Positions 1 to 29,386 are shown, counted from the first letter of the stretch. The stretch is 64,000 nucleotides of DNA from Candidatus Xenobia bacterium (GCA_045863235.1 BTUM01000007.1:1-64000); one strand, 5' to 3'. A program made the numbers and translations. The notes: generated by a model not told the origin, from the sequence alone.

Positions 1-381
1 CTCTGCTCCGTGCGGTCGGGTTCCCAGCCTGCGGCCTTTCCAGCCTCCTGAATCGAACAAAGAGTCGATACCGCCGGTATAAGAAGCGAGCACCAGTTTG
101 GTTCATCGGGCTCATTTCGACGAACGGGGCTGACACGTCCTGAGCACGGGCGAGGCCTGAATCGTTCGATACGGTCAAGCGCTCGGACTTTGTGCGATAC
201 AGGCCTGCGGTCATCGCAGCCGGGCGTGCCAAGGACGAGTTGCTCGACTGGATGGCGTCCGTGAGCCGGGTATCAGCCGTGATGAGCCGAGTGGTTAACG
301 CCACCGCCTTTCAACGGATCCCTCCCGCTCCGCAAGCCGGTTGAAGGACAGCCAGCCCGGTTTGCACAATTTTCACCCACA

Positions 382-2073
382 ATGTCCCCTGAAGAGTTGC
401 TCGCGTTGGTAGTTGACGGCGAATCGCTGCGCCTTGAGCTCAAAGGCGAGAGTCGGCATCCCCTCAATGATCGCGACCTGGTGGAGGCCGTTGTGTGTCT
501 GGCCAACCGGTCGAGCTCAGAGCCCGGCTGGCTTTTCGTGGGGATCGAGGACGACGGGCAGATCACGGGGGCGCGCCAGCGTCACGAGGGGCGCACGGAC
601 CCACGCCGGCTGCAGGCCCTGCTGGCCAATCGCACCAGACCCTCGTTGTCCTGTCCGGTCGAGGTGGTCGAGGTTTCGGGCCGCGAAGTCATCGTGATCG
701 AGGTGCCGACCAGTCGAACTCCGGTTTCGACAACTGATGGCATCTTCTTGCGGCGCGCTCTGGGCCATCACGGCGCACCCGAGTGTTTGCCGATGTCTTT
801 TTATGAGATGCAGTCTCTCCAGGCCGACCGGGGAACTTTGGATTAGTCCGCTCTCGAAGTGCCCGGGTTGACCTGGGAGGATCTCGACCCGCTCGAGTTC
901 GCCCGGTTTCGACGGCGCATCGAGGAGAGCCGCGGACAGGGGGACAGAACGCTTCTCGATCTCTCCGACATCGATCTGGCCAAGGCTCTGGGCGCGGTGC
1001 GCGCCAATCACACGGTCACCTCGGTCCGTATACTCGGCTTGCTGCTTTTCGGCAAGGAACAGGCCTTGCGTGAGAACCTTCCTGCTCACGAGGTAGCCTT
1101 TCAGGTTCTGCACGATACCAGGGTGGAGGTCAATGAGTTCTTCCGCTGGCCCTTGCTCCGGGTGGTCGACGAGGTAGAGGCTCGATTTCGAGCGCGCAAC
1201 CGCGAAGAAGAGGTCATGCTTGGAATGACTCGCCGGGGGATCCCGGACTATCCCGAGCGGGCGATGCGTGAGGCGCTGGTCAACGCTTTGATCCATCGTG
1301 ACTACACCCGGTTGGGCACGGTGCACCTGCAGTGGCATCCGGACAGGCTGATCTACTCCAATCCGGGTGGCTTTCCCGAGGGAATCCGGTTGGATAACCT
1401 GCTGGTGGCCCCCCCGACTCCGCGCAACCCATCCCTGGCCGATGCCTTCAAGCGCGCCGGATTGGTGGAGCGAACCGGCCGCGGGATCGACATCCTGTAT
1501 GAAGAGCAGCTTCGTAATGGGCGACCGGCGCCATCCTACGAAGGCAGCACACCGACCAGCGTCGTCCTGGTCCTTCCCGGTGGAGCGCCCAACCTGGCTT
1601 TCGTCAGAATGGTGGTGGAGGAGTCCCGCTCGGGTTACGATCTGCGACTGGGAGACCTGCTGGTGCTCAATCACCTGTGGTTGGAGCGCCGCCTGACGAC
1701 CGCTGATGCAGCTCGCTTGCTGCAGCGCTCGGAGGCCGAGGCGAGGGCTCTGCTCGGTCGTCTGGTCGAAGCCGGCCTGATCGAGCACCGAGGGGATGGT
1801 CGCGCTCGCTCGTACCACCTGGCGGCTTCCACCTATCGAAGTCTGGGACAGAAAGTGGAGTATGTCCGACAGCGCGGCTTCGAGCCCATGCAGCAGGAGC
1901 AGCTGGTGCTGCAGTATGTCCACAAACACGGCCGCATCACCCGTCGAGAGGCCGCCGAGCTCTGTCGGCTGAGCCCCTACCAGGCGTCGCGCGTCTTGCA
2001 GATGATGACCGACCGTGGCCAGTTGACATCTCGAGGGAAGATGAAGGGGACCTATTACGAGCTGTCGGACTAA
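382..2073 (+). pseudogene. AlbA_2/Schlafen-domain + HATPase_c_4 + C-terminal HTH protein (putative regulator), interrupted by in-frame TAG at 844-846
   Basis: ORFs 382-846 (GESLRLELK, VCLAN, LFVGIEDDG) and 859-2073 (REALVNALIHRDY, NPGGFP, RNPSLADAF, VERTGRG, HTH tail) are in the same frame, separated only by GAT TAG TCC GCT (D*SA). Confidence 0.8.
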
Positions 2074-2243: not shown

Positions 2244-3515
2244 GTGGCAAAGAACACGCGACAGCAACAGAAAGTGCGCGCTCAAAAGCGGGCCAAGCGA
2301 GAGAAGAAGGCGTCGGGGCGGCGGACAAGGCCTCAGGAGTCCGATCTCGCCAGGGAAGCGCGCGAGCTGCTCGCCCTGCGACCCGAGCTCGCCGGACTGA
2401 GGTTTCCCGCCGCGAAGGTGCGCAGCCAGCTGGAGCGACTGGATGAGCTGGCCACGCAACTGCTCTCGGGCGAGCTGGAGCTGGAAAACCTGCCCGGCCC
2501 CTACGACCTGCGGGTGCTCCGAGGTGACCTGGTCAGCGCGCTGGCCGACGACAACCTGGCTCAACTCGCGGTCACCGCGCTGCGGGGGCTGGGGGTCGGC
2601 GGTCGACGCGCCGGGGCCCGCGACTTGCTGTTGGCCGGCGCCCTGGGCCACCTGGGCGGAGAAGGCGCCGTGGGCAATCCCCTCTGGGAGGCGCTGCTTG
2701 ACCGCTCCCTGCGCGACCCGGAGCTTGGCCCTCAGCTTGCCTTGCGCTCGAGGTGGCTCGATGAGGACGTCCCTTTTGTGGCGGAACTGGTCCTCCCCGG
2801 CCGCGCGCTGCTTCAGGACATGACCGGAGCCAGCGCCGAGCAGATGGAAGCCCTGGACCGGATCGACAAAGAGCTCATGCAGGCCGGTCAGCTCGATGTG
2901 GGAGTCCACTTTCTGTATCCCATGCTGCAGGCCGAGGCCAAGTTGCTGGTTCTGGCCCGGGGGCTCGACCCGGATGAGCGGGTCAGGCTTTACGCCCGCC
3001 TGAATCTTGCCTGGGCCCGCTCGGCTCCCCCAGAGCTTCTCGACAGCCTGGCCGGGCCCGTCCCCTCCCTGGGCGAGGCCAGCGAGCTGGGCCTGGCCTG
3101 GTTGGGGAGACAGCTCAATTTCCAACGGCTCCTCCCGGACTGGATCTGGCCACGATTCGGCGTTGATCCAGACAGCCCCGAGCCGGCTCTCGATCTGGCC
3201 CACGACCTGAGCGAGCACCAGGGCCGGGTCGAGGAGGCGATCGGAATTCTGCAATGGGTGACGGGCAAGTACCCGGAGCTCTTCGAAGCCCACCTCGAGC
3301 TGGCCCGGTTGTGGTCACTGGGCGGTGAGCGTGAGAAGGCGCAGCAATCGGCTCGGCGCTGCCTGACCGAGCTACACCGCCTGCCTCCCGACACCGTGCC
3401 TGCGGAAGGGATCAAGACCGTCGAGGAGCAGGTCCGGGCAATCCTGGCGGGTTCCCCGCTGGCGGGCACGGGCTGCTCGGGTGCCCATCACGACCATGGA
3501 GCCGCCCGCGCCTGA
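2244..3515 (+). CDS. hypothetical protein with basic N-terminus and TPR-like C-terminal helices
   Basis: 423-aa ORF with GC3-rich codons; C-terminal EEAIGILQ...EAHLELARLW...EKAQQSARRCL resembles a TPR. Confidence 0.65.
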   Translation: MAKNTRQQQKVRAQKRAKREKKASGRRTRPQESDLAREARELLALRPELAGLRFPAAKVRSQLERLDELATQLLSGELELENLPGPYDLRVLRGDLVSALADDNLAQLAVTALRGLGVGGRRAGARDLLLAGALGHLGGEGAVGNPLWEALLDRSLRDPELGPQLALRSRWLDEDVPFVAELVLPGRALLQDMTGASAEQMEALDRIDKELMQAGQLDVGVHFLYPMLQAEAKLLVLARGLDPDERVRLYARLNLAWARSAPPELLDSLAGPVPSLGEASELGLAWLGRQLNFQRLLPDWIWPRFGVDPDSPEPALDLAHDLSEHQGRVEEAIGILQWVTGKYPELFEAHLELARLWSLGGEREKAQQSARRCLTELHRLPPDTVPAEGIKTVEEQVRAILAGSPLAGTGCSGAHHDHGAARA

Positions 3516-3666: not shown

Positions 3667-5322
3667 TCACTGCAACATCCCCCGCCGCGCCTGCTCGGAG
3701 CTCGCAAGCACATACAGCCGGTGCCGCGCCCGCGAGCAGGCCACGAAGAGCTCGGGCCGGTCCCACTTGGGCGGCGCGAGCTCGTCCATCTCGACCAAGA
3801 CCATCACCTCGGCCTCCATCCCCTTGAAGGCCCGGATGCTCGAAAACCACACCGCCCTGTCGGAGAGCCAGGCCTCCACGTCCTGCGTGAGGGCGTACTT
3901 CCCCAGGCGCTCTCCGGCCAGGGCCGAGTTGGCCGGCTTGCGCCGGCTGAGCAGGGCCACCTGGGAAGGGCGCAGGCGCTCCTGGTCGAGCAGTCTCTTG
4001 AGCAGGGCCTGACAGCTTCTCCGCAGCTCCTCGTCGTCAGAGTAGACCGTCACCTCGGGTGGGCAGCCGTCGGGAGTGCCGGGTGGGCTCTTGATGTCCT
4101 GGCCGAGCACCTGGCCGCAGATGCGGGCGATGGATCGGGTGTTGCGGCAGTTCTCATCGAGCACGTAGAGCATGCCTTCGGGGAACTCCATGCCCGTATC
4201 GAACAGGTTCTGATCGGGGTCGAAGAACAGGTAGAGAGGGCCGTTCGGCACCCGGCCCAGGGCCTCGATGGCCACCCACCACTCGTCGTGAAAGTCCTGG
4301 GCCTCGTCGACCACGATGGCGTCGTAGCGCTCGTCGACCCGCGCAAGAGCATCCAGGATGCCCTCGGCCGAGCGATAGCGCCAGAAATCAGCGGCATCTT
4401 CTTTGGGAACCACGAACTCGATGCCGGCCCTGGAGCAGAGCTCAAAGCAAAGAGAGTGGAAGTTGATGACCTTGAGGCCTTCTTGATCGCCCACCTGGCG
4501 CCGCAGCCAGAAGGGAAGGCTCTTGTTGTAGCAGAGCAGCAGCGTGGAGCGGCCTTCCCGGGCGAAGGCCAGAGCCCGGTGCAGGGCCAGCATGGTCTTG
4601 CCGCTGCCGGCGGTTCCCTGCACCTTGACGCGCGGGTTGGCGAAGATGCGGGCCAGCGCCCGGGCCTGGGATTCGGTGAGCTGCACCAGGGCCTCTTCGT
4701 CGCGCTTGAGGCAGTGGCCGAGCGGGGTCACCAGGTGGAAGGTCGACTGCAGGGCGGTCTTGATCTGCTCGAAGTCGGAAGGGTGCATCTGGCTCGACTT
4801 CTGGTCGCGGCTCCAGTCGCGCAGGGTATCGCGCACCCTCTCGCCCAGGTGGGGCAGGTCGCGCAGCGAGTAGAGCACCGAGCCCTGGGCTCCCGGGGGC
4901 AGGGTGCCCAGGTAGTTGCACTCGGGAAACGCCACCGCGTAGCCGAAAGTGCATGGAAAGCCTCCGGCACGAGGAAAGCGACCGCGCTCGAGGATCTGCT
5001 TTCTCAGGTCGTGGGTGTTTCCCCGGGCCTGGGCGAAGGGGTCGTCCATCGGGTAGCCGTTCTGCCACCACTGGCGCAGGTCGGGGTCATACTCGAGCTG
5101 GCCTCCTTTCACCTCCAGCACCAGCATGCCGTGGCGGCGGTGGAGCAGCACGAAGTCGACTTCTCCTTCTTTGAGGTGAGCGTCCTTGCGCAGCAGGTGG
5201 TAGTTGCAGTAGATGGTCCACTCCTGGTCCAGGCCTTTTTGCAGGGCTTCGGCCACCTGTCTCTCACCGGCATTGTCCATCAGCTCGAGCTTGAGCTCGG
5301 GCACGAAGCGGGCTCCGCTCAC
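3667..5322 (-). CDS. NERD (PD-(D/E)XK) nuclease fused to a UvrD-like SF1 helicase
   Basis: GEVDFVLLHRRHGMLVLEVKGG (NERD), GTAGSGKT (Walker A), IVVDEAQD (Walker B), ENCRNT, FKGMEAE, VACSRA. GTG start at 5322 overlaps the upstream stop (GTGA). Confidence 0.88.
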   Translation of the reverse strand: MSGARFVPELKLELMDNAGERQVAEALQKGLDQEWTIYCNYHLLRKDAHLKEGEVDFVLLHRRHGMLVLEVKGGQLEYDPDLRQWWQNGYPMDDPFAQARGNTHDLRKQILERGRFPRAGGFPCTFGYAVAFPECNYLGTLPPGAQGSVLYSLRDLPHLGERVRDTLRDWSRDQKSSQMHPSDFEQIKTALQSTFHLVTPLGHCLKRDEEALVQLTESQARALARIFANPRVKVQGTAGSGKTMLALHRALAFAREGRSTLLLCYNKSLPFWLRRQVGDQEGLKVINFHSLCFELCSRAGIEFVVPKEDAADFWRYRSAEGILDALARVDERYDAIVVDEAQDFHDEWWVAIEALGRVPNGPLYLFFDPDQNLFDTGMEFPEGMLYVLDENCRNTRSIARICGQVLGQDIKSPPGTPDGCPPEVTVYSDDEELRRSCQALLKRLLDQERLRPSQVALLSRRKPANSALAGERLGKYALTQDVEAWLSDRAVWFSSIRAFKGMEAEVMVLVEMDELAPPKWDRPELFVACSRARHRLYVLASSEQARRGMLQ

Positions 5323-7418
5323 GGCAGCACCTCCCGAAGAAAGCTCAGGGTCCGGGGCAGGTCGATGAGATACTCCCGCACCACCTCGAGCGTGCGCCGG
5401 CGGGGCAGGGCGTCCTGAAACTTGCTCAGGCGGTACTCGGGCATGGCCTTGAGCAGCCGGTCCTGAAAGTCGGGCTCTTCCCACAGCTCGGGCCGGGCGA
5501 GCTGGCGCAGACTGTCCTCCACTTTGGGATCGTCCGAGCGGCGGATGCGCAGGCGGAAGTTGTCGGACGCCACACTCCAGCCGTGCAGCAGGCCCAGGCC
5601 GTACTTCAGGGTCTGGTTGACGGCGCCGCCGGCGTAGGTCCACACCAGCTCGTCCTCGCCCCCCACCTCCACCGCCAGGCCCCGGTGCGAGGCGCGCTCG
5701 TGCCGCAGCGTGGCCAGAGCTGCGGCGGCGCTCTGGTCGAGGTAGGGGAGTGGGGTCTCGGAGGTGGCCAGCTGGTGCATCTTGCGGCACAGCTCATAGC
5801 CCAGGAACTGGGGCACGTAGCCGGCCCAGGTGGGCTTCATGCCGGCCGGGGCGGGGGCCACCTTCACCAGCCGCTCGCGATGGAAGACCTCGCGCACCAG
5901 CCAGGGACGACCGCCCAGCAGAAACGAGCTCATCTCGGCCACCAACTTGTCCACGAACGATTGCTCCAGAGAGCCGATGTCCTTGCCGCCCTCGGCCGCC
6001 ACCCGATAGAGCTGGGGAGTGGAGAAGACGGCGTAGATCTCTATGAAGTTCTTGCGGCCAAAGACCCGCTCGGCGTGCTGGCCCATCGAGAGAAGGCCCC
6101 CTGACGAGAACAGGTAGTCGTTGGTCAGCATGTGATCGATCAGCTCGTCGACCTCGGCCCGGGTGATGCCGGAGAAGTCGGGAACTCCCTTGAGCTCGTC
6201 CCAGCACCGCTCGGGGCTGATGCCGCCGTACTGCAGGCACAGGGCCAGCAGCTGGTGGACCAGCACCGGCCAGCACCGCGTCTGGGGACGCACCGACTCG
6301 ACCCGGCCCTCGCGCGCCAGCTCGACGATGGCGGCGGCCTGCAGCACCACCTCGGGGTCGGTGCACAAAAACATGGTGTTGGCTCGCTGTCCCGAGCGGC
6401 GGCCGGTGCGGCCCATGCGCTGCAGGAAGGAGGAGACGGTGGAGGGAGCGTCGGCCTGAAAGACGCGATCCAGGTCGCCCACGTCGATGCCCAGCTCGAG
6501 GGTGGAGGTGCAGGCGATCAGGGCGTTGCTGCCGTGGTGGAAGCGGTGCTCGGCGGCCTGGCGCTCTTCGAGCGAGACCGAGCTGTGGTGCACGAAGACG
6601 TCGATGCCGCGGCCGCGCAGGCGCTGGGCCACCGACTCGGTGAGGGCCCGGCTCTGGCAGAAGAACAGGCTCTTTTGTCCCTGAGCCGCCCCGGCGGCCG
6701 CCCGGGCCACCTGCTCCTCGGTGGGACAGTAGCGCACGGCGATCTCGCGGCCCCCCGGCGGACGCGGGGGATCGACCACCCGGCCCGGGCGTCGCGAGGG
6801 CCCGCTGAGCCAGGTCAGGATGTCGTGGGGGTTGCCCACCGTGGCCGACAGGCCGACCCGCTGCACGTCGTGGCGCGAGAAGCGGCCCAGGCGCTGGAGC
6901 ACGGCCATGAGGTGGGCTCCCCGGTCGCTGCCGGCGAGGGCGTGGACCTCGTCGATCACCACCGCCCGCAGGTCGGCGAACAGGCGGGCGTGGGGAACTC
7001 TGGGCGAGAGGAGCATGACCTCCAGCGACTCGGGGGTGGTCATCAACAGCTCGGCGGGCTCCTTGAGAAAGCGCCGGCGCTCGGCCTGGGTGGTGTCGCC
7101 GTGCCACAGAAAGCGGCGCAGGCCCACCATCTCGGTGTAGGTGCCCAGACGCTCGGCCTGGTTGTTGAGCAAAGCCTTGATGGGGGCGAGGTAGAGGGCG
7201 CCCACGGCCGAGGGGGGGCGCTCCATCAAATCGGCCAGCACAAAGAACATGGCCGCCTCGGTCTTGCCTCCGGCGGTGGGAGCCAGGATGATGGCGTTGC
7301 AGCCGTCGAGCAGAGCCGCTCCGGCCTCTTCTTGCACCGGACGCAGGCTGGTCCAGCCCAGCCGGGACACGATGGCCTCCTGCATCCGGGGCGGCAGACG
7401 GGCGAAGGTTGCGATCAC
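5319..7418 (-). CDS. brxHI: BREX-associated Lhr-like DEAD/DEAH helicase (BrxHI)
   Basis: APTAGGKT, DEVH, SAT, TSTLELGIDVG, QRMGRTGRR; lies directly downstream of brxD as in BREX types 2 and 6. Confidence 0.85.
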   Translation of the reverse strand: MIATFARLPPRMQEAIVSRLGWTSLRPVQEEAGAALLDGCNAIILAPTAGGKTEAAMFFVLADLMERPPSAVGALYLAPIKALLNNQAERLGTYTEMVGLRRFLWHGDTTQAERRRFLKEPAELLMTTPESLEVMLLSPRVPHARLFADLRAVVIDEVHALAGSDRGAHLMAVLQRLGRFSRHDVQRVGLSATVGNPHDILTWLSGPSRRPGRVVDPPRPPGGREIAVRYCPTEEQVARAAAGAAQGQKSLFFCQSRALTESVAQRLRGRGIDVFVHHSSVSLEERQAAEHRFHHGSNALIACTSTLELGIDVGDLDRVFQADAPSTVSSFLQRMGRTGRRSGQRANTMFLCTDPEVVLQAAAIVELAREGRVESVRPQTRCWPVLVHQLLALCLQYGGISPERCWDELKGVPDFSGITRAEVDELIDHMLTNDYLFSSGGLLSMGQHAERVFGRKNFIEIYAVFSTPQLYRVAAEGGKDIGSLEQSFVDKLVAEMSSFLLGGRPWLVREVFHRERLVKVAPAPAGMKPTWAGYVPQFLGYELCRKMHQLATSETPLPYLDQSAAAALATLRHERASHRGLAVEVGGEDELVWTYAGGAVNQTLKYGLGLLHGWSVASDNFRLRIRRSDDPKVEDSLRQLARPELWEEPDFQDRLLKAMPEYRLSKFQDALPRRRTLEVVREYLIDLPRTLSFLREVLP

Positions 7419-8723
<1,305 letters not shown>

Positions 8724-8735
8724 GGTGTGGCTCCT

Positions 8736-11534
8736 TCAGTCTTTGAGATAGCGTTTGCCGGCCGCGCTCGAGTCGATGCGTACCCCGAAGGGCAGCAGCC
8801 GCAAGTAGTTATCGAAGTCGCGGGTGAAGGCGCGGGCCCTGCGAGGCGTGCCCAGCATGGCGATCACCTCGGCCTCTTCCACGCTGCCGAAGCGCTCGAT
8901 GTGCTGGAACACGCGCACCACGGCCTGGTCTTCGAAGTGATCCACCCACGAGAGCACCTGCTCGGCCACGACCTGTCCCCCGCTGACCGGGAAGAACACG
9001 CTCAGGCGGCAGGGCTCCACCTCCTCGTTGCCGTCGGGATGGAACAGCTCCACCGGGGCCTTCTCGGTGCGCCCGCCCTGCAGCTTGAAGAAGACCTCAG
9101 CGCTCTGGCCCACCTTCAGGTGGAGGCGCTGGTTGACCAGCTCGGCTCCCTGGACGTCCTCGATGACCACCTCCACCTCGAGATCGGGCGGAACGCGCAA
9201 CGCCACTGGCAGAACCGGGGGGACTGCGAAGCTGAGAACGCCTTCGGAGCGGTCTTCCAGGAGCACCTTCAGGCGATTGCGGCCGAGCACCGGGGGCATG
9301 GACTCGCCGCTGAGCGCGTAACGGGCCAGTCGGGGGGCTCGGGCGGCGCGAAACGAAAGGCTCAGCACCGGGATGACCCGCTCTTGCAGGCTGTTGCCCC
9401 CGTGCACGAAGTTGCCCCGCCCCTGGAAGACGCGGCTGTCGCGCAAAAACATGAGATAGCCCTCGGCCCCTCCGTAGTTGAGCGCCTTGAGGGGGACGCT
9501 GGCCATCGATTCCTCGCGCACCGGGTGCTCGGTGAGCACGTAGCGGCGGCTGCTCTGGCCGCCCCGATAGGGGTAGGGCTCGCGCGACTCGTCAAGCAGC
9601 AGAAAGCCGTGGTCGGAAGTGATCACGAACTCGTCCACCCCGGCATTGCGCAGGTGCTGCACCGCCGAGCGCAGCTGGCCGAGCCAGCGGTCGAAGCTGG
9701 CCAGGCCCACGTCAGCCTCGCCGCTGCCGTCGATCTCACGGCTGTGCACCACGATCAGGGCGGCGTTCTTGACCTTTTGGGCCAGCTTCTCGGGTACCGT
9801 GTTGCTCACCTCGCTCAGAGTCAAGAGCAGGGGGGTGCGGCGCGAGCCGGTGTGGCGCTCGAGGCTGCGCTCAGCCATGGCCCGCACTCGCTGTTGGGGG
9901 GTGTGCACGCTGTACTCTCCGGCTCGAAAGCCTGAGAACGAGCTGCCGTCCAGAGTGAGGTTGCCGTCGCGGCAGACGGGGGCGAGCACGTTCATGCCCA
10001 CCGAGGTGATGGAGGGCAGCTCGGAGTAGCGGGCTTTGAGGTGCACCTGGCCCTCCAGGCTCTCGGCCAGCTCGGCGGCCATCTCAAAGCGCAGCGCGTC
10101 CACCATGAAGAAGGCCACCCGGCCGTCCGGGGCCTGAGTCAGCGGGTGCACCACCTGATCGTAGAGATGGCGTTGCTGCAGCCGGGGCTCGGGCAGGAAG
10201 CTCTCTTGCGAGCAAAGGTCGTTGAAGGCGGCGGTGAGATGGTCGAGCCACTCGCGGTAGGCCCTGCGCAGCCGCCGGAAGCCGCGCTCCAGGGCCTGGT
10301 AGTGGGGTAGCTGGGGGGTCCACAGCTGCAGACGTTCTTGCTCGAAATGGCGGTGGGCCTGGTCCACCTGGTGGGCACCCCCGGTGTAGCTTGCGAGGGC
10401 ATCCTCGAGGTTGCGACAGCCTTTCAGGGGGGCGGGGTGGTCGACCAGGAGCTGACCGAGCCGGGCGGCGTCGCGCACCAGACCCCACTCCTGGCGACGG
10501 TTCAGCTCGCTCTGCACCCACACCGAGGGGGCCTCGAGACGCTCTTGCGCCCAGGCCAGGGCCTGACCCCAGCGCTCTTGCTCGAGGCTGGCCAGAGCCG
10601 CTTCCAGCAGGCGGGTGTCCTCGCGGCTGAAGGTATCCACCTTGCCCAGCTCCTCGGGCGAGCCGGCCTCGAGCTCGGCCTCGAGCATGCTCTCGGTCTG
10701 GTTGGCATAGACGCGATAGCGCTCGGGGTGACGCTTGCGAAGGGTGGTCACCAGCTCATGGCAGGTCTTGCACAGGGGGGGCGACAGCGAGCGCAGGGGG
10801 CGCAGTACTTCCAGGTGGGGCGGTCGGTTGAGATCGTGCACATACTCCACCGAAAGCAGCCAGGCGATCCAGGCCTCGGTGAGCGCGCGCAGGGTGCGGG
10901 CGCACTCGCCCTGCAGAAAGAGCTCGGTGAGCTCGGCCGACAGGCCCGTGTGGCGGGCCAGGTAGTTGCGCAGGATCTCGCGCTTCTCGTCGCTGTCGAT
11001 GCGCTCTGTCAGCTCGCTGGGTGTGCGCACCAGAGCATCCAGAACCCGGTCGTGCTGCAGGCTCTCGAGATACTGGTCGAGGCCGGTGCGCTCGGGAGAG
11101 CCAAGCCGGGCCAGCCAGGCCTCGGCGTCCTCGAGCGTGCGCTGGCCCTGGCCGAGAAAGGCCTCGGTTTCCTCGGGCGGAACGCGCCCGGCGGCCACCT
11201 CGCGCACCAGGGTCTCCAGGGCCCGCTCGAAGCGGGTGCCGGCCTTGTAAGCCTCCAGAAGGGGGGTGCCGCGCACGGTCTGATCGGTGTGCCCCGGCAG
11301 ATGGATCAACAAAGCGGTGGGATCCAGGCCGTCGAGCTGACCCTCCAGCGCCAGCAACGCCTCCAGAAAGCTGCCCCGGAAGGCCACGATGGGGGCGAAG
11401 AAGTCGCCTCGCTGGCTCAGATCGTCCACGAACCGGGTGTAGACGCCCTCGCGGTCGAGCCAGAACACCACGCCCCGCTCGCGCAGGCGCGAGGTGATCT
11501 GCTTCTCCAGGGCCTGGGCCAGGGGGCTCGTCAC
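8736..11534 (-). CDS. pglZ: BREX PglZ alkaline-phosphatase-superfamily protein (type-6-like)
   Basis: VDALRFEMA, LPSITSVGM, EID, TSDHGF and HGGNSLQE motifs intact; N-terminal VVFWLD. Confidence 0.92.
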   Translation of the reverse strand: MTSPLAQALEKQITSRLRERGVVFWLDREGVYTRFVDDLSQRGDFFAPIVAFRGSFLEALLALEGQLDGLDPTALLIHLPGHTDQTVRGTPLLEAYKAGTRFERALETLVREVAAGRVPPEETEAFLGQGQRTLEDAEAWLARLGSPERTGLDQYLESLQHDRVLDALVRTPSELTERIDSDEKREILRNYLARHTGLSAELTELFLQGECARTLRALTEAWIAWLLSVEYVHDLNRPPHLEVLRPLRSLSPPLCKTCHELVTTLRKRHPERYRVYANQTESMLEAELEAGSPEELGKVDTFSREDTRLLEAALASLEQERWGQALAWAQERLEAPSVWVQSELNRRQEWGLVRDAARLGQLLVDHPAPLKGCRNLEDALASYTGGAHQVDQAHRHFEQERLQLWTPQLPHYQALERGFRRLRRAYREWLDHLTAAFNDLCSQESFLPEPRLQQRHLYDQVVHPLTQAPDGRVAFFMVDALRFEMAAELAESLEGQVHLKARYSELPSITSVGMNVLAPVCRDGNLTLDGSSFSGFRAGEYSVHTPQQRVRAMAERSLERHTGSRRTPLLLTLSEVSNTVPEKLAQKVKNAALIVVHSREIDGSGEADVGLASFDRWLGQLRSAVQHLRNAGVDEFVITSDHGFLLLDESREPYPYRGGQSSRRYVLTEHPVREESMASVPLKALNYGGAEGYLMFLRDSRVFQGRGNFVHGGNSLQERVIPVLSLSFRAARAPRLARYALSGESMPPVLGRNRLKVLLEDRSEGVLSFAVPPVLPVALRVPPDLEVEVVIEDVQGAELVNQRLHLKVGQSAEVFFKLQGGRTEKAPVELFHPDGNEEVEPCRLSVFFPVSGGQVVAEQVLSWVDHFEDQAVVRVFQHIERFGSVEEAEVIAMLGTPRRARAFTRDFDNYLRLLPFGVRIDSSAAGKRYLKD

Positions 11535-14500
11535 GTCAGCCGCACCCGCACGCCCTCCTTGAGCTGGGCGCTGATGCGGTCGCGCAGCTCCTGCAAGAAG
11601 GCCTCCAGCTCTTGCAGGTTGTTGAACTCGCGGCCGGTGGTCTTCACCCGCAGGGGCACGATGACGACGTGCTGGACAATCTCATCGAAGCGCCGGTTGG
11701 CCTCTTCGTCAGCGTGGCGCAGCTGGGCCGGCACCGAGTCGCGCAGGAAGGCCAGCGCCGGGCTGGTGGCCTCGGGGGTGGTGGTGCAACGCGCCTCGCG
11801 CAGGGGGCGCAGCACGTGGTCGGACTGCTCGCTCTTGAGCTTGTTGAACCCGTCGCGCAGGATCAGACGGTCGTGCAGCTCCTGGTAGAGCTTGTCCTGA
11901 CGATCGAGATAGTCGGCGCGCGCCTCGCGATAGCGACTCTGGATGCGCTCGGCGGCCTCCACCACGCTGTCCACCTCGCGCCAGGGGCAGGGAGCATCGA
12001 ACTGTCTCTCGAGCTGGTCCCAGTCACGGGCCACCTCTTGCTCGAGGCCTACGGTGCGCAGCTGCTCGAGCTCGACGGTGCGCACCCGGTCGACCCGGTT
12101 GAGCTTGCGCAGCGAGTCCTCGGTCAGGTCGCCCAGGTAGATTCCCAGGTGCTGCAGCCCGTCGCGCAGGGCGTCGAGGTGCTGCAGCACTGCCTTGAGG
12201 ACGTCCTCGACGTGGCGCGAGCGCATGCACCGGGCCAGCACTCCGCCCAGTTGCTCGAGGGCTCGGGGCACCTCGCTCTGGCGGGGCAGGCGCGCGAGGC
12301 GTTGCTGGAGCTCTTGCAGCTTTTCGAGCTGGCTCGGAAAATGACGGAAGATGGCATCGGCCAGGTGGTCGTTGTCGGGGTCGGCCTCCACTCTCAGGCT
12401 GTCAGATAAAAAGCGGCGCAGCTTGACGCGGGCCTGGGGGGTCAGGCCGCTGTCGTCGGCCGGCAGGATGTCGGCCAGCTTGAAGTCGCGGTCGCGGCGG
12501 AAGAGGTCTTGCACGTCCGGGTCTTGCACCGAGGTGACCCGCACGCCCGAGGCCGGGCGCAACACCACGAAGCTGCCCCGCAGAAGGCCGAGCACCGAGG
12601 CCCGCACGATGTCGGGGGCATAGCCGTAGGGCGGCCCGCCGAACTCGCCCAGCAGATTGGCGCCGGTGGTGCCGTTGTTGGCGATGATGAACTCCTTGAT
12701 GCGGGTGGGCACCTCGCCCCGACAGGTGGGAGAGTAGCGGCCCGAGTCGAGCTCGAGCAGGCCCAGCTCGCCCGGGAGGAACTTGTTGCTCACTCCCCTC
12801 AGCTCGAACTCGAGCAGCTGTCTCATGTCGCCCTCGGTGATGGCCAGCTCGGTGAAGTGAGGATAAAGAGCGGGCAGCACCTCCTGGCCGGCTGCCTGCA
12901 GCACGTTCGGGAAGCTGCGCGACCAGCTTTCCTTGTTCAGCTTGCGGGCTCTGAAGTAGAGCTCGCCGGCCAGGAAGCAGGCGGCCACCTGGTCGTTGAA
13001 ATCGTTCTCGAGATGGTCGAGCCGGGTGCGTTCATCGTAGAGCAGGCGGCGCCGAGCCTCGGGCAGCGATTGCTGGCGCGGCTCGTAGCGGCCCACCATC
13101 TGGCGCGAGCGAATCAGCTCGCGGGCGCGCTGCTCGAGCCCGGTGGTGGAGCCGCACACCCAGACAATTCGGTCGCGGCGTAGCTGCTCGTCGCTCTCCT
13201 TGAGCCAGAGCTCCTCTCGTCGCTCTTCCTGGCGAGTGAGAAAAGCCAGATCGAAGCCCACCACGGCCGGATCGTTGGGGGAGACCAGCCGCTCGTCGCG
13301 CGTGGCACGCCCGTCGGAGAAGCTGGCGGCCAGGGGGAAGGGACGGTTGCGATAGCGAGGCCTGTCGGCCTGCCCCACCAGCTGTTTGAGCTTTTCAGCC
13401 ACCAGCACGCTGACGGCCTGACCGGTCACGCCGTAGCTGTCGCGCTCGTTGGCCCAGTCCTGGCCGGCCGAGCTCTGAATGCGATAGCCCTGCTTTTCCG
13501 AGCGCGACAGGATGCCGTGCTCGGCGAGCTTCTCCAGGGCGCTTCGGAGCGCTTCCACCTCGCTCCCGGCGCCCAGCCGCGGATAGAGGCAGCGGGCCAC
13601 CAGCTCGGGCGTGGTGGGCTCCTGGTCCTGAATCAACTCCAGCAGCGCCACCGCCCTGGCGGCCCGCATCACGTTCCGGTCCGAGACCAGGTCGTCGAGG
13701 CTGGCCAGGCGGGCCATCGTGTTCTGCACGTCGGCGTCCAGGGCGGTGTGCTGCACATCGTAGATCTGGTCGATGGTCAGCAGCGTGCCCAGAGGCTGCT
13801 CACCCAGCTCGAGCTCTCGAAACAGCTCGCCGAGCAGCTGCAGCAGGCCGCGAATGGCGTGGTCGTCGCCCTTCATGCGGGTGGAGCGGGCCCTCAGGCT
13901 GCTGGTGATCTGCATCAAGAGGTCCACGTGGGCGGGCAGCATGGGGTAGACTTCCAGAAAGTCCATGCTGGTGATCTGATCGCATTTGTAGCCGTACAGG
14001 CAAAGGTCGGGGCGGTGCTGATCGAAGAGCGCCTCGAGCTCTCTGACTTTGAGCGGGTCTTTCTTGAGCAGCCTCTTGTGGACCACGTCGCGGATGTTGG
14101 TGGGGGCAAGGTGCACGCGCAGACGGGGAGGAAAGCGGTCTTTCAGCTTGCTGATGTTCCCACCCTCGACGTCTTCTTCGATCTTCTGCTGGCCGGTGGC
14201 AAAGATCCACACACGGCCCTTGAGCCGTTGCCCCAGCGCCGCCACAAAAGTCTGCAGCTTGAGCATGCGAGCTTCGTGGCCGTGGATGTACTGGCTGACC
14301 TCGTCCACCACCAGGAACACCGTCTTGCCGGGGGCGCGAAAGCCGAGCATGGCCTCGATGTCGCGCACCGTCTCGTCCACGGCCGTGCCCACTCCGGCCT
14401 GAGAGCCAGTGCGGATGTCGAGCCAGGCCATGGGGTCCTCGTAGCGGCTGGGAAACATCGCGTGCATGACCTCTGAGAAATGGTCCTCGGCCAGGCTCTC

Positions 14501-15142
14501 GGCGCGGGCCTGGCTCCAGGGCTTTCCGAGGGTCTGCTCGGCCAGGCTGAGAAACCTCTCATACTCATTGTCCTGCTCGAGCTTGAGCTCGAAGTCGGCC
14601 ACGTAGTGGCTCCCGGGGCAGTAGCCCAGCCGCTCTTGCAGCTGCCGTTTGGCGGCGGTGTGGATGTGCTCGTCATCGCGGGCCATGGCCCCGATGTCGA
14701 AGACCACCGCCAGCGGGTCGAGCTGGCCGCGCAAGTAGCTCCAGGCGGCGTGCAGCTCCTGGCGGCGAGGCGAGTCGTCTCGAGCCAGCAGCGCCGCCGA
14801 CAGCTTGCGACCGTCCGGAAGCACGCGCTCATCCAGCGACAGCCCCAGCAGCTTGGCGAAGCTGCTCTTGCCCGAGCCGTAGAAGCCAGAGATCCAGCAG
14901 GCCGGCAGCTCCACCCCGCCCGACCTGCCGAGCTCGGTGCTAAGGGCCTTGAGCAGGTGCACGAACTGCTCATGGATGCCGTCGCCGGTCCGCTGCCGGC
15001 GCGGGTCCCCCTCCTCGTAGCCGCCAGTGATGATGTACTCGTTTACCTCCTCGAGCAGCTTCTCGGGTTTTTGCTCGTGGAAGTAGATCACCGGCGGGAT
15101 ATCGCGGGTGATGTCGGACTGGAATATCTCCTTGATCTTCAC
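11531..15142 (-). CDS. brxC: BREX P-loop ATPase BrxC
   Basis: MKIKEIFQSDITRDIPPVIY, EYIIT, WISGFYGSGKSSFAK, VVDEVSQYI, ATGQQ, KLKDRF; 1203 aa. Confidence 0.92.
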   Translation of the reverse strand: MKIKEIFQSDITRDIPPVIYFHEQKPEKLLEEVNEYIITGGYEEGDPRRQRTGDGIHEQFVHLLKALSTELGRSGGVELPACWISGFYGSGKSSFAKLLGLSLDERVLPDGRKLSAALLARDDSPRRQELHAAWSYLRGQLDPLAVVFDIGAMARDDEHIHTAAKRQLQERLGYCPGSHYVADFELKLEQDNEYERFLSLAEQTLGKPWSQARAESLAEDHFSEVMHAMFPSRYEDPMAWLDIRTGSQAGVGTAVDETVRDIEAMLGFRAPGKTVFLVVDEVSQYIHGHEARMLKLQTFVAALGQRLKGRVWIFATGQQKIEEDVEGGNISKLKDRFPPRLRVHLAPTNIRDVVHKRLLKKDPLKVRELEALFDQHRPDLCLYGYKCDQITSMDFLEVYPMLPAHVDLLMQITSSLRARSTRMKGDDHAIRGLLQLLGELFRELELGEQPLGTLLTIDQIYDVQHTALDADVQNTMARLASLDDLVSDRNVMRAARAVALLELIQDQEPTTPELVARCLYPRLGAGSEVEALRSALEKLAEHGILSRSEKQGYRIQSSAGQDWANERDSYGVTGQAVSVLVAEKLKQLVGQADRPRYRNRPFPLAASFSDGRATRDERLVSPNDPAVVGFDLAFLTRQEERREELWLKESDEQLRRDRIVWVCGSTTGLEQRARELIRSRQMVGRYEPRQQSLPEARRRLLYDERTRLDHLENDFNDQVAACFLAGELYFRARKLNKESWSRSFPNVLQAAGQEVLPALYPHFTELAITEGDMRQLLEFELRGVSNKFLPGELGLLELDSGRYSPTCRGEVPTRIKEFIIANNGTTGANLLGEFGGPPYGYAPDIVRASVLGLLRGSFVVLRPASGVRVTSVQDPDVQDLFRRDRDFKLADILPADDSGLTPQARVKLRRFLSDSLRVEADPDNDHLADAIFRHFPSQLEKLQELQQRLARLPRQSEVPRALEQLGGVLARCMRSRHVEDVLKAVLQHLDALRDGLQHLGIYLGDLTEDSLRKLNRVDRVRTVELEQLRTVGLEQEVARDWDQLERQFDAPCPWREVDSVVEAAERIQSRYREARADYLDRQDKLYQELHDRLILRDGFNKLKSEQSDHVLRPLREARCTTTPEATSPALAFLRDSVPAQLRHADEEANRRFDEIVQHVVIVPLRVKTTGREFNNLQELEAFLQELRDRISAQLKEGVRVRLT

Positions 15143-15768
15143 GCCATGGCCTCCGAGTAGATGCGGGGTCGGTAGTCGCGGTCGGGGGGAAGCTCGCCCA
15201 TGAAGCTCAGCGCGGTCTTGTCGCGCTGCTCGCCCGGGTAGAGCAGCACCACGGGAATCTGACGGGTCTTGCCATCGAGGTGCCGGAGCAGGCTCGAGGA
15301 GCGATAGAAGGGATACAGGGCCCCCACGCGCCGGATCCAGATCAAGGTGCGCTCGGTATCGTGGGGCTGGCTGTCGGAGAACTCCTCGATCACCCGAACC
15401 ACGTCCGCAGCCAGGCCGTCCTCCCCTCCGATGAGCTGGCCCACCTGCTCGCGCAGACGGCTCAGAGCTCGGTCAGGATGGCGCTGATACTGCCGCTTCT
15501 CGGTCATGATCATCCTTGCGAGCACGTCCTCACCGAGCGACTTGAGGCGCTGCAAGAAGAGGCGCTGCATCGAGATGTCGAGCACGCTCCAGTGGCGGGC
15601 CTTCAGCTCGTCAGAAAGCGCTCGTACCTTCTTGCGCATCTCGAATTCGCTCTCGGGGGGGTAGGGGAGGATGGCGAACCGGTAGTTGCGCATGGTGGAG
15701 ATGCGCGGCCCTTCCTCGGCCAGAAGGTCACGCTTGAGCCCTTCAAAGGCGTTGCCGAGCCCGGTCAC
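15139..15768 (-). CDS. brxB: BREX protein BrxB (DUF1788-like)
   Basis: GPRISTMRNYRFAILPY, GALYPFYRSSSLL, PVVLLYPG, LSFMG..DYRPRIY. GTG start at 15768 overlaps the brxA stop (GTGA). Confidence 0.85.
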   Translation of the reverse strand: MTGLGNAFEGLKRDLLAEEGPRISTMRNYRFAILPYPPESEFEMRKKVRALSDELKARHWSVLDISMQRLFLQRLKSLGEDVLARMIMTEKRQYQRHPDRALSRLREQVGQLIGGEDGLAADVVRVIEEFSDSQPHDTERTLIWIRRVGALYPFYRSSSLLRHLDGKTRQIPVVLLYPGEQRDKTALSFMGELPPDRDYRPRIYSEAMA

Positions 15769-16526
15769 AACACCGCCTCGGCCCACTCGAGCAGGCTGGC
15801 GTGCTCGAAACTCAGGTCGTGCACGTCGCCGGCCCGCGCGTAGCGCACCCAGGGCATGCGGCGCAATCGCTGCTCCCATTCCACCGCTTCGATGCCCACC
15901 GAAGCAAGATACGGGTTGTCGCGCAGACTGCCCTCGAACTCCACTTCGCGCAGAAGCTGCAACAGGTAACCCAGGGCCAGGTCGCTGACCCGGGGAAGCC
16001 TGAGCGGTCGCACCGCCGAGCTTCCCTCGCACAGACCAGCCTCGCAGGCGCAGGCCAGAAGACCCGCCGCCATGCGCTGGCTGGTGGAGGAGGCCCAGCG
16101 CCCCTCGGTCTTGCGGTCCACGAAGCGCAGCGTGGTGGTGCGATCGATGGTGGGCTCGGGGTGAAGGCGTCGCCCTGGCAGGATGCTGCCGGTGAACTCA
16201 CGGTAGAGCGGGTCGGAAAGCTGCACGTGCCAGTGACACAGCACGTTGCGCTCGCGTGGGTCGGCCGGTTTCCAGCGGTGCAGCACCTGCAGGGCCCGGG
16301 GGTAGGTGTCGTAGCGATGGATGAAGTTGCTCACCAGGTAGCGTACCCTGGCCATGGTGCGGCTTCCGAACCAGCGTTCCTCGAACGCCACCCGGGCGCG
16401 CTCTCCCTCCAAGAGTGAGCGGTTGGCGTTCTCCCAGTAAGCGCGGCTGTCCTCGGCCCCCAGCCCCATGCGCAGCATGCGGGTGTGGATTTCGGTGGCC
16501 TCGCGCGGTTTCTCCAGGGCGATCAC
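15765..16526 (-). CDS. brxA: BREX protein BrxA (DUF1819-like)
   Basis: HTRMLR, AFEERWFG, CHWHVQLSDPLYREFT; located between brxE and brxB with GTGA overlaps on both sides. Confidence 0.8.
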   Translation of the reverse strand: MIALEKPREATEIHTRMLRMGLGAEDSRAYWENANRSLLEGERARVAFEERWFGSRTMARVRYLVSNFIHRYDTYPRALQVLHRWKPADPRERNVLCHWHVQLSDPLYREFTGSILPGRRLHPEPTIDRTTTLRFVDRKTEGRWASSTSQRMAAGLLACACEAGLCEGSSAVRPLRLPRVSDLALGYLLQLLREVEFEGSLRDNPYLASVGIEAVEWEQRLRRMPWVRYARAGDVHDLSFEHASLLEWAEAVL

Positions 16527-17074
16527 AGGCGGTAGTACGGGGCCGGATAGCTCGCCGGCAGGGGCAGCATGGCGGCGGCCAGGCATCGTGCCGCCTCGGC
16601 CGGGTCGGAGGGCATGGGGCCTTTCAGCTCGCGCCCTCCCGGTTGCACCGTATAGTCGCTCTGGGGGCCGAGCGCTTGCTCGAGCGCGGCCCGATCGAAG
16701 CGAGCCGTGGGCAACACGCTGATGGGCAGCTTGAGGGCCTCTTCAGGAGGCACCTGGCTCCACTTCAGCTCGCGGATGCGCTCGTCGAGCTGCTCTTCCA
16801 GCTCGAACCCCCAGCGATACAGGGTGCGGACGTTCTCGTGGCTGTGGGCCCTCTGGTCGGTCAGCCGGGCGGCCCGACGCACCGCCTCCAAAGCGGCCCA
16901 GCGATGCGTGCGCGGAGCCAGCCGCTGCATGAAGTCGCCCCCGCCGTATTCGTTCACCAGGTCGGTGCGCCACCAGCCGAGTCGGGGTGGGTCACTCTGG
17001 CCTTCCCCGGCCCAGGACAGGGCTAATTGCAGCGCCAGAATCTGGTCGATTGCGATGGCAACGGATGGCATCAC
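16523..17074 (-). CDS. brxE: BREX type 6 protein BrxE
   Basis: DQILALQLALSWAGE, PRLGWWRTDL, GGGDFMQRLAPRT, C-terminal YPAPYYRL; first gene of the locus. Confidence 0.82.
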   Translation of the reverse strand: MMPSVAIAIDQILALQLALSWAGEGQSDPPRLGWWRTDLVNEYGGGDFMQRLAPRTHRWAALEAVRRAARLTDQRAHSHENVRTLYRWGFELEEQLDERIRELKWSQVPPEEALKLPISVLPTARFDRAALEQALGPQSDYTVQPGGRELKGPMPSDPAEAARCLAAAMLPLPASYPAPYYRL

Positions 17075-19791: not shown

Positions 19792-20795
19792 CGTAGATCC
19801 TCCTGGCCCGACCGGGCGATCAGTTTGCGGAGCAGCACGAGCGCCTCGCGGGCGACCTCGGACGACTCGGGGAGCTCGCCCGGGTCGACCGTGACCGCGG
19901 CCGCCCGGGTCTGCAGGCTGGCGGCCATGCGCTGCAGCAGGGGATGGCGATAGCCCACGGGGGCGGCCACCCCCACCTCGTTGATCACGCTCAGGTGTCG
20001 GCAGCGCGAAGCCAGGCGCTCGAGCTCTTTGTCCAGCTTGCCCAGCTCGTCCTCGGGCAGGCTGCCAGTGAGGCGCACGCGCAGCAGCACGTTGCGTCCG
20101 CCCGGGTGCTGCAGGCTGGGAGGGCTCCCAACCTCCAGCTCAACCGACTGCCACGACCAGCGCGCCACCTTCACGGGGTGCACCTTCAGGGGGACAAGCT
20201 CGACGACCAGGGCCGAGCCGCTGTCTCCCTCGTAGTCCACCGGCTCGGGGGTGCCGCTGTAGCTCTCCTGGCGGTCCAGGCTACCGCCCAGAGCGAGGTA
20301 GTCAAGGCCATGGGAAGCGGGCGGGTCCCCCACCGCCAGCCCCACGCGCAGGCCGGTGTCGGAGCCCCGAGGGGGGATCCAGGAGAGGTCTGAGGTGCCC
20401 TCGCGCCGGGTGATGGGGCAGGGATAGAAGGTCAGCCCGCTCTTGAGCTCGACAGGCTCGCTCTTGCGCAGCACGCGCACCGGCTCCTGGAACAGGTCGG
20501 CGCGCAGCTCGTAGGGGCTGTCGGGGGTGAGGGGATCGGTCTCGCCGGGCAGGATCAGCACCGGCACCGAGCTCGCCCCGAGCAGGCGCGAGACGTCCAT
20601 CAGGGTGCGGTGGCTGATGCGGTTGTCGGCCAGGGTGTTGCCCACCAGCACCAGGGCCTCGACCCGCTCTTTCTCGGCCAGGGCCACCAGGCTCGAGAGA
20701 ACGTCCAGCCTGGCCTGGCGCAGCTCCTCGGCCAGCTCGGGCAGCTCGCGGAAATCGCGCCCCACCAGGACGTCGGATGTCTGCAGGATCTTCAT
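19788..20795 (-). CDS. Mre11/SbcD-like metallophosphoesterase-fold protein with degenerate catalytic motifs
   Basis: MKILQTSDVLVG, LVLVGNTLAD, ILPGETD, DYLALGGS, YSGTPEP. ATG at 20795 after GGAGG; ATGA overlap with the ATPase gene. Confidence 0.8.
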   Translation of the reverse strand: MKILQTSDVLVGRDFRELPELAEELRQARLDVLSSLVALAEKERVEALVLVGNTLADNRISHRTLMDVSRLLGASSVPVLILPGETDPLTPDSPYELRADLFQEPVRVLRKSEPVELKSGLTFYPCPITRREGTSDLSWIPPRGSDTGLRVGLAVGDPPASHGLDYLALGGSLDRQESYSGTPEPVDYEGDSGSALVVELVPLKVHPVKVARWSWQSVELEVGSPPSLQHPGGRNVLLRVRLTGSLPEDELGKLDKELERLASRCRHLSVINEVGVAAPVGYRHPLLQRMAASLQTRAAAVTVDPGELPESSEVAREALVLLRKLIARSGQEDLR

Positions 20796-20797
20796 GC

Positions 20798-23488: not shown

Positions 23489-23902
23489 CGCGTTCGAGGG
23501 TGAGCGGAGAAAAGGCGCGACTACGCTCCGCGCGGCGTTCGGTGGGGAAACGGGAGAGTCCTGGCAGAGCGAGTTGGTCGGCACGGGACGAGTGTATCCG
23601 GTGCGGGTGACATGTAGCGTCGTCACCGGGGAAGGCGCAGCTGGACCTGAGGCGCGGCAGGGCAACAAGCAGACCCCTGGTGGACACGGAGCATCGGGTC
23701 ACCGCGGGCGCATCCCACTGAGCAGTTGGACCGACCAGGTCTCTGAGAATCAATCGTGCCAGGGAGTCACGGGGCCCTGATGCCCGTCGTCCTCCCCGAC
23801 TCTATAGTGAAGCGCTGAAGACTTGCGCGAACTGGCGCTGGTAGATCTGCCTGGAGGCGCCCCCGAAGGCCTTCGGCACTTGACGCTCAGCACACTAAGA
23901 CT

Positions 23903-29218: not shown

Positions 29219-29386
29219 CCCTGACCGGCCCCGCAGCTAATTGTGCTCGCACTTTGGTTTTGCACATTAGCACAATCTGACGAACGCGCCGGAACTGCGT
29301 TCCTGCGCGTTGTAAAGTGCAAGACCAGAGGCCTTGCACTTTAGCGACGGCAGGCCCAACCTGGCACGCGGACGAATTCTCTCGGG

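What the first reader, a model, noticed from the sequence alone, without database searches (positions are those of the whole stretch)
5319..17074. Type-6-like BREX locus lacking the PglX methyltransferase, with brxC overlapping pglZ
Seen: brxE-brxA-brxB-brxC-pglZ-brxD-brxHI are all full length with intact motifs. The brxC stop overlaps the pglZ start (GTGA, 11531-11534), the same junction style used through the operon, and no methyltransferase remnant is visible. Established: canonical type 6 BREX has pglX between brxC and pglZ, and in studied BREX systems PglX provides self-marking and specificity; pglX is also known to be rearrangement-prone. Inference: either a methylation-independent BREX derivative, a locus using a pglX encoded in trans, or a precise deletion.
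Basis: partly seen in the sequence, partly recalled or inferred. Interest (0 to 1): 0.85.

Follow-up and report, generated by a model that had tools for sequence, protein, structure and literature searches.

The report
Complete BREX-6 with displaced pglX gene
This bacterial anti-phage gene cluster has not lost its DNA-marking enzyme: an intact copy sits in the same genome, most likely about 6 kb past the end of the cluster on the adjoining contig, so it is probably an ordinary methylation-based BREX system with a rare gene order.

Summary
The local observation holds: brxE-A-B-C-pglZ-brxD-brxHI are intact and brxC overlaps pglZ (GTGA, 11531-11534) with no methyltransferase between. The headline does not. 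The genome encodes one full-length BREX-6 PglX (1341 aa, NF033455 1930 bits, cut-off 900, DPACGSG and NPPY intact) at G000:C39:66963-70988. The last 55 nt of C39 equal window 1-55, a 55-mer found nowhere else. That join puts pglX on the operon's strand, 6.3 kb past brxHI, just off the window's edge. A congener (L035, proteins 57-79% identical) has the same order on one contig. pglX and the core show purifying selection and similar divergence. The order is rare. pglX is the nearest BREX gene upstream of pglZ in 37 of 39 distinct informative loci and in 31 of 31 informative places in a second phylum; brxC-pglZ adjacency was seen only in this genus. Verdict: a complete type-6 BREX whose pglX has left the operon with its own leader, not a methylation-independent system. 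Activity is untested. Two look-ups of this scan's notes showed no earlier report of this arrangement.

The parts
16523..17074 (-). brxE (183 aa)
   Evidence: NF033448 BREX-6 BrxE 189.3 bits over cut-off 80; PADLOC BrxE 3.7e-52
15765..16526 (-). brxA (likely start GTG at 16526, overlapping the brxE stop)
   Evidence: PADLOC BrxA 2.5e-86; junction sequence
15139..15768 (-). brxB (209 aa from GTG at 15768)
   Evidence: PADLOC BrxB 4e-80; Pfam PF08747 over cut-off
11531..15142 (-). brxC AAA+ ATPase (1203 aa)
   Evidence: NF033441 681.9 bits; Walker A at residue 86, Walker B VVDE at 278
11531..11534 (-). GTGA overlap of the brxC stop and pglZ start, where pglX normally lies
   Evidence: bridged by a contig of run X3; 4-nt overlaps also in L034/L072 and L035
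8736..11534 (-). pglZ, type 6 (932 aa)
   Evidence: NF033443 915.5 bits, cut-off 400; single copy in the genome
7419..8723 (-). brxD ATPase (434 aa)
   Evidence: NF033438 497 bits, cut-off 350
5319..7418 (-). brxHI SF2 helicase (699 aa)
   Evidence: PADLOC BrxHI 1.9e-267; DEVH at residue 156
3667..5322 (-). NERD nuclease + UvrD-like helicase, GTGA-coupled to brxHI; candidate accessory effector
   Evidence: Pfam NERD and UvrD_C_2 over cut-off; same position in L035, 57% identical
2244..3515 (+). 423-aa ORF without a family, opposite strand, between the operon and pglX
   Evidence: no hit over threshold in PADLOC, Pfam or NCBIfam
382..2073 (+). Schlafen/AlbA_2 + HATPase_c_4 + wHTH gene interrupted by an in-frame TAG at 844-846; opposite strand
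   Evidence: Pfam PF04326, PF13749; sequence
1..55 (.). 55-nt exact overlap with the end of contig C39 (71970-72024), inside an approximately 180-nt repeat. It links the window to the pglX gene, which lies OUTSIDE the window: G000:C39:66963-70988 (= L005:14864-18889), minus strand, 1341 aa, starting about 980 nt before window position 1, behind its own leader with AGGAGG and a divergent Uma2-family gene
   Evidence: 55-mer occurs only at these two contig ends; 55 nt is the commonest exact end overlap in this assembly, 28 of 57 contig pairs. PglX: NF033455 1930 bits, cut-off 900, no stops; DPACGSG at 348, NPPY at 576; Uma2 PF05685; leader alignment

Best explanation
This is a complete type-6 BREX gene set whose intact methyltransferase gene pglX lies outside the operon, most likely 6.3 kb downstream on the same strand, and the system likely works like other BREX systems: PglX would methylate a short host motif together with BrxB, BrxC and PglZ, and unmarked phage DNA would be blocked. 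Shown: all eight genes are intact in one genome, which holds one brxC, one type-6 pglZ and one type-6 pglX. brxC overlaps pglZ, and a congener has the same order on one contig. Inferred: (1) the C39-C7 join; (2) that pglX has its own promoter, since three opposite-strand genes separate it from the operon and it carries a 5' leader shared with a congener's pglX; (3) that it assembles with the operon's products, by analogy with type-1 BREX (PMC13326643); (4) that BrxD-BrxHI and the coupled NERD-helicase act in the restriction step. The likely route: in this order pglX is often separated from brxC and pglZ by inserts of 1-23 kb, so it already behaved as a free-standing gene. Recombination in the defence island then left brxC fused to pglZ and pglX downstream.
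For: Full-length PglX over the BREX-6 cut-off with both catalytic motifs; 3 solved BrxX/PglX sequences match it, E 5.7e-56 to 1.3e-49. The 55-mer overlap is unique. L035 shows brxE-A-B-C-pglZ-brxD-brxHI-NERD helicase-4 kb-pglX on one contig, and a stretch like window 48-109 lies in that same interval (81% over 62 nt). Divergence from G004 is similar for pglX (73% aa, dS 0.87), brxC (69%, 0.79) and pglZ (66%, 0.91). dN/dS is 0.24 for pglX and 0.06-0.31 for the core in all 14 core comparisons. Quick pglX and brxC trees both place G004 outside G000+G002. GC3 of pglX is 0.885, as in the core (0.88-0.91). All 4 runs laid carry pieces of both the operon and this pglX at 90% or more. [quoted passage not shown]
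Against: No listed record bridges the C39-C7 join in the runs laid. The overlap sits in a repeat with a 94.7%-identical copy about 180 nt away, so a misjoin is possible. No sigma-70-like promoter was found before pglX (0 sites in 1.2 kb; the scan is weak in high-GC DNA). G001 (90% complete) has the brxC-pglZ junction but no close ortholog of this pglX, only a partial one at 72% that lies upstream of a second pglZ. One strain contig of run X7 deletes the core while pglX is kept. Expression, methylation and phage resistance are untested, and type-6 biochemistry is inferred from type 1.
Confidence: 0.82

Rival explanations
1. The system is genetically complete but silent or decaying: moving pglX out of the operon uncoupled its expression, and strains are losing parts of the island.
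For: A contig of run X7 joins window 5368 to 16931, deleting most of the core. L072 keeps only a stub of the NERD-helicase gene. The neighbouring Schlafen gene has an in-frame stop. No promoter consensus before pglX.
Against: No stops in any of the eight genes; dN/dS 0.06-0.31 against a near relative and 0.12-0.30 against G004. The displaced order is kept in a congener 65-79% identical in the core.
Confidence: 0.08
2. pglX is cognate but lies elsewhere in the genome (the 55-nt join is a repeat-induced misjoin) and acts in trans.
For: The overlap is inside a repeat whose copy number appears to differ between strains (joints 19565-19730 and 19881-19701). No listed bridging record.
Against: The 55-mer is unique in the assembly, and none of the 56 contig ends with a 55-nt overlap has more than one partner. 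The same order is on one contig in L035.
Confidence: 0.07
3. One reading: a methylation-independent BREX derivative; the PglX on C39 is an unrelated leftover.
For: The clean coupled brxC-pglZ junction, kept in three species-level genomes (G000, G001, G004). No close pglX ortholog in G001. BrxD-BrxHI resemble the two Shango proteins SngB/SngC, which act in a system without a methyltransferase (recalled).
Against: The genome's only type-6 pglX is intact, adjacent by assembly overlap, under purifying selection and co-diverged with the core. No alternative marking enzyme was found among the 23 ORFs scanned in window 1-31 kb. PglX is required for restriction in all type-1 systems examined (PMC13326643).
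Confidence: 0.03

Closest known systems
BREX type 6 (NCBIfam NF033448 BrxE, NF033441 BrxC, NF033455 PglX, NF033443 PglZ, NF033438 BrxD; PADLOC BrxA/BrxB/BrxHI)
   Same: All eight components are present and intact, and the three type-6-specific NCBIfam models are over cut-off.
   Different: Order is E-A-B-C-Z-D-HI ... X instead of E-A-B-C-X-Z-D-HI (canonical order seen here in L038, L039, L114, L139, L142 and in 21 of 21 single-contig cases of a second phylum). A NERD-helicase gene is coupled after brxHI.
BREX type 1 (E. coli, Salmonella, Acinetobacter; PglX/BrxX structures 8c45, 8zek, 9ewz)
   Same: Homologous PglX with the same catalytic motifs. Rakesh and Krishnan (PMC12839542) treat types 5 and 6 as subtypes of type 1. 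Rearrangements of pglX are reported in type 1 (programmed inversions, split genes; PMC9881135).
   Different: No BrxL; BrxE, BrxD and BrxHI instead. The reported type-1 rearrangements in the passages read are inversions or splits within the locus, not a move of the whole gene behind the operon.
BREX type 4 (methyltransferase replaced by a PAPS reductase, phosphorothioate mark)
   Same: A BREX in which no pglX lies next to brxC and pglZ (PMC12839542 introduction).
   Different: This locus has a pglX nearby, type-6 PglZ and BrxE, and no PAPS-reductase hit among the ORFs scanned.

Membership tests
BREX type 6 | Type-6 PglZ | tested here: met
   NF033443 915.5 bits, cut-off 400
BREX type 6 | BrxE (exclusive to type 6 per PMC12839542) | tested here: met
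   NF033448 189.3 bits, cut-off 80; paper passage
BREX type 6 | BrxA, BrxB, BrxC core | tested here: met
   PADLOC E 2.5e-86, 4e-80, 0; NF033441 over cut-off
BREX type 6 | BrxD ATPase and BrxHI helicase after pglZ | tested here: met
BREX type 6 | Intact type-6 PglX methyltransferase in the genome | tested here: met
   NF033455 1930 bits, cut-off 900, no stops, DPACGSG and NPPY
BREX type 6 | pglX at the same locus as the core | tested here: met
   Unique 55-nt contig overlap gives 6.3 kb and the same order is on one contig in L035. The join itself is inferred; no listed record bridges it.
BREX type 6 | Customary order brxC-pglX-pglZ (usual, not a required component) | tested here: not met
   brxC overlaps pglZ; pglX is downstream. 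This is the variant feature.
BREX type 6 | Asymmetric m6A self-mark and phage exclusion | not testable with these tools
   needs a methylome and a phage assay
   none among the 23 ORFs of window 1-31 kb scanned against PADLOC, Pfam and NCBIfam; the rest of the window was not scanned

The most novel reading that the evidence does not exclude
In this genus pglX has become a free-standing, separately regulated specificity cassette. It sits outside the restriction operon with its own leader, and its target-recognition region is swapped between strains. Marking and restriction could then be tuned or re-targeted independently, and core-less strains could keep the mark without the defence.
Probability: 0.2. 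Interest if true: 0.45.

Novelty: new member of a known kind. Interest (0 to 1): 0.2.

Why it matters
Mostly as a correction and a caution. The apparent methyltransferase-free BREX is a window-edge and contig-edge effect. Proximity-based calls on fragmented assemblies can report 'pglX-less' BREX when the gene is a few kb away. The remaining point is modest: a rare natural gene order suggests that PglX need not be co-transcribed with BrxC and PglZ. It also gives a natural split of marking and restriction genes for testing type-6 BREX, for which my four literature searches listed no experimental study.

Tried and rejected
1) Loss of pglX: rejected by whole-genome HMM searches. 2) Misassembly at 11531, or a pglX-containing form there: an X3 contig bridges the junction. 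The joint table shown lists no form with an insert at 11531, but 15 joints and 465 pieces were not shown, and contigs drop rare variants. 3) Direct bridge of the C39-C7 join: none among the listed records. One X7 record (1727 nt) runs 25 letters past the C39 end, but those letters were not shown, so it is not counted. 4) Promoter scan before pglX: 0 sites, shuffles 0.0; uninformative. 5) Duplication-and-loss origin: looked for a pglZ remnant after pglX. Only one NF033443 match in G000 and G004, so no trace. G001 has two pglZ but one brxC and one close brxD. Its pglX-insert-pglZ contig groups with G002 and L073 and may be a second locus or a co-binned contig; unresolved. 6) One or two origins of the brxC-pglZ fusion: the junctions of G000 and G004 differ in sequence. 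The pglZ tree is unresolved at that node (quick method), quick pglX and brxC trees put G004 basal, and the brxD tree groups G004 with L073. No verdict; no formal clade test was run. The careful pglX and brxC trees timed out. 7) Goldfarb et al. 2015 is not held, so the canonical type-6 order is recalled and was checked on data instead. The supplement of PMC12839542 (gene neighbourhoods) could not be read and may already show this order. 8) No structure or complex prediction was run: the families were clear from sequence. 10) Dropped rows: 12 of the 19 loci (L041-L052; best segment 23-28% identical, plus one weak partial hit) were left out of the type-6 count.

Full report
Observation. PADLOC models name them BrxE, BrxA, BrxB, BrxC, PglZ, BrxD and BrxHI. 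NCBIfam puts PglZ (NF033443, 915.5 bits, cut-off 400) and BrxE (NF033448, 189.3, cut-off 80) in type 6 and passes BrxC and BrxD. The brxC stop and pglZ start share GTGA at 11531-11534. The same overlap joins brxE/A, A/B, B/C and brxHI to a further gene, while pglZ/brxD has a 12-nt gap and brxD/brxHI abut. The junction is real: a 1636-nt contig of run X3, 104 letters different, spans 10560-12195.

The methyltransferase is not missing. A whole-genome search with the BREX-6 PglX model gave one match, G000:C39:67011-70955, 1930 bits against a cut-off of 900, covering model positions 1-1318 of 1319 with no stops. The type-1 model hits the same gene and nothing else. The protein is 1341 aa from an ATG behind AGGAGG, with DPACGSG at 348 and NPPY at 576. 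It matches 3 solved PglX/BrxX sequences. The genome has one type-6 pglZ and one brxC, so there is one core and one pglX.

It most likely lies just beyond the window's left edge. The window is the start of contig C7. The last 55 nt of C39 are identical to window 1-55. That 55-mer occurs only at these two ends, and none of the 56 contig ends with a 55-nt overlap has more than one partner. Of 57 contig pairs with an exact end overlap of 20 nt or more, 28 have exactly 55, as expected of graph edges from a k=55 assembly (my inference). Through this join the pglX start codon is 6,299 nt past the brxHI stop and 4,647 nt past the NERD-helicase stop, on the same strand. Caveats: the overlap lies in an approximately 180-nt repeat with a 94.7% copy nearby, strains appear to differ in repeat number, and no listed record bridged the join. 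Independent support comes from a congener. L035 (G004) has brxE-A-B-C-pglZ-brxD-brxHI-NERD helicase, 4 kb, then pglX on one 69-kb contig, with proteins 57-79% identical. A stretch like window 48-109 lies in the same interval there. L034/L072 (G001 and a 99.9% identical record) have the brxC-pglZ overlap, but their contigs end in or 0.7 kb after brxHI. G001 (90% complete) showed no close ortholog of this pglX. All 4 runs laid hold pieces of both the operon and this pglX.

The pglX is cognate by descent. Against G004, pglX has 73% identity and dS 0.87, like brxC (69%, 0.79) and pglZ (66%, 0.91). dN/dS is 0.24 for pglX (0.32 against G002), 0.12-0.30 for the seven core genes against G004 and 0.06-0.31 against L072 (Nei-Gojobori; dS near or above 1 is imprecise). 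Quick trees of pglX and brxC share the branching G004,(G000,G002) with supports 0.99 and 0.84, whereas the brxD tree differs. GC3 is 0.885, against 0.88-0.91 in the core. Residues 701-800 are the least conserved (53-58%). One contig of run X1 replaces 369 nt of pglX (about residues 584-707) with 375 other letters. This fits variation in or near the target-recognition domain that follows the catalytic domain (PMC12839542, section 17).

How common is the order? (a) One search examined 87 loci: 80 from metagenomes and 7 of the 19; the other 12 were distant or weak hits and were left out. 44 were informative: pglX was the nearest BREX gene upstream of pglZ in 41 and brxC in 3 (L034, L035, L072). 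After merging at 95% PglZ identity this is 37 against 2 of 39. 43 were uninformative: 20 with under 5 kb upstream, 21 with a partial pglZ, and 2 (L090, L146) with 10 kb upstream and no BREX gene. One of the partial ones, L137, lacks pglX, but through a deletion that also breaks brxC and pglZ. pglX downstream of pglZ was seen only in L035. (b) In 401 genomes of the phylum of L038, 45 had type-6 pglZ at 46 places. From searches places show brxC-pglX-pglZ on one contig, 10 have pglX upstream with brxC elsewhere, and 15 have neither on the contig. None has brxC upstream without pglX, and none has pglX downstream. The pglX-pglZ gap ranged from 104 to 15,719 nt. (c) In the window's own phylum 13 of 401 genomes had type-6 pglZ, all in one order. 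Of their 15 places, 3 are brxC-adjacent (G000, G001, G004), 7 have pglX upstream on the contig and 5 are uninformative. There pglX is often set apart by inserts: 11.6 kb after brxC in G011, 5 kb in G030, about 12 kb or more in G002, and 4-23 kb before pglZ in G002, G001, G027 and G023. The inserts scanned include an ABC-type ATPase and a HigB-type toxin-antitoxin pair. Kin are not independent, so these are descriptive counts.

Mechanism. Three genes on the opposite strand lie between the operon and pglX: an unknown 423-aa ORF, a stop-interrupted Schlafen gene and uma2. Read-through from the operon is therefore unlikely, and pglX likely has its own promoter in the roughly 110 nt it shares with the divergent uma2 gene. 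About 66 nt of leader are homologous to the leader of G002's pglX, so the gene appears to have moved with its leader; a consensus scan found no promoter. [quoted passage not shown] I infer the same here, with BrxD-BrxHI (a linked ATPase-helicase pair, PMC12839542 section 24) in place of BrxL and the NERD-helicase as a likely accessory nuclease of the kind catalogued in section 35 (part 1 read). None of this was assayed. Whether the fusion arose once or twice is unresolved.

Comparison and novelty. Every component that defines type 6 is met; only the customary order is not. pglX is known as a rearrangement hot spot (PMC9881135, passages). Four full-text searches (listings and abstract openings only for papers not named above) listed no paper on a downstream pglX in type 6. 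The neighbourhood supplement of PMC12839542 could not be read, and Goldfarb 2015 is not held (its type-6 order is recalled). Two look-ups in this scan's notes showed no report of this arrangement. Verdict: a new member of BREX type 6 with a rare, genus-limited gene order; the claim of a PglX-less system is refuted. Interest 0.2.

Noticed in passing
window 5369-16930: A 1878-nt contig of run X7 (depth 6.6) joins 5368 to 16931: a strain with nearly the whole BREX core deleted. The NERD-helicase is kept, and the same run holds pglX pieces with few differences.
   Followed up: partly
window 382-2073 (+): Schlafen/AlbA_2-HATPase-wHTH gene split by an in-frame TAG at 844-846. This module is described as a frequent BREX neighbour in PMC12839542; homologs lie in or beside other type-6 loci (L030, L061, L121, L138, L142).
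   Followed up: partly
window 17404-23668 (-): SNF2 helicase (DISARM DrmD-like, below cut-off), a phosphoesterase-like ORF (SbcD-like by my reading, no family hit) and a Rad50/SbcC-like ATPase directly upstream of brxE. Homologs of all three lie between the NERD-helicase and pglX in G017:C64; a possible co-travelling defence module.
   Followed up: partly
L071:8321-13451 (G000:C7 about 98.3-103.5 kb, outside the window): A second BrxD/BrxHI-like pair (43% and 41% identical), also similar to Shango SngB/SngC, behind a 571-aa gene with no PADLOC hit. Similar brxD-like copies occur in congeners.
   Followed up: partly
L005:16769-17137 (pglX, about residues 584-707): A contig of run X1 carries 375 other letters in place of 369, and other runs diverge around residues 740-985: probable allelic exchange near the target-recognition region.
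   Followed up: no
window 1-125 and G000:C39:71766-72024: Approximately 180-nt repeat in at least two copies across the contig join. A 45-nt core of it recurs as a spaced array on C97 and on other contigs, and in congeners. Nature unknown.
   Followed up: no
window 29230-29345: Approximately 110-nt element with dozens of 80-97% copies across the genome, with inverted self-matches (REP-like).
   Followed up: no
G459:C36:9699-17671; G292:C11; G402:C22: Tandem or partial duplicate pglX genes in type-6 loci of a second phylum; G459 has two full-length copies in a row.
   Followed up: no
L090, L146: Type-6 pglZ-brxD-brxHI with no BREX gene found in 10 kb upstream and no pglX in 10 kb downstream; probably very long inserts, unchecked.
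   Followed up: no
L070:9912-12791 (G003:C32): A uma2 gene 89% identical in DNA to the one beside pglX sits divergent to the NERD-helicase instead, in a 64%-complete genome with no type-6 pglZ found.
   Followed up: no
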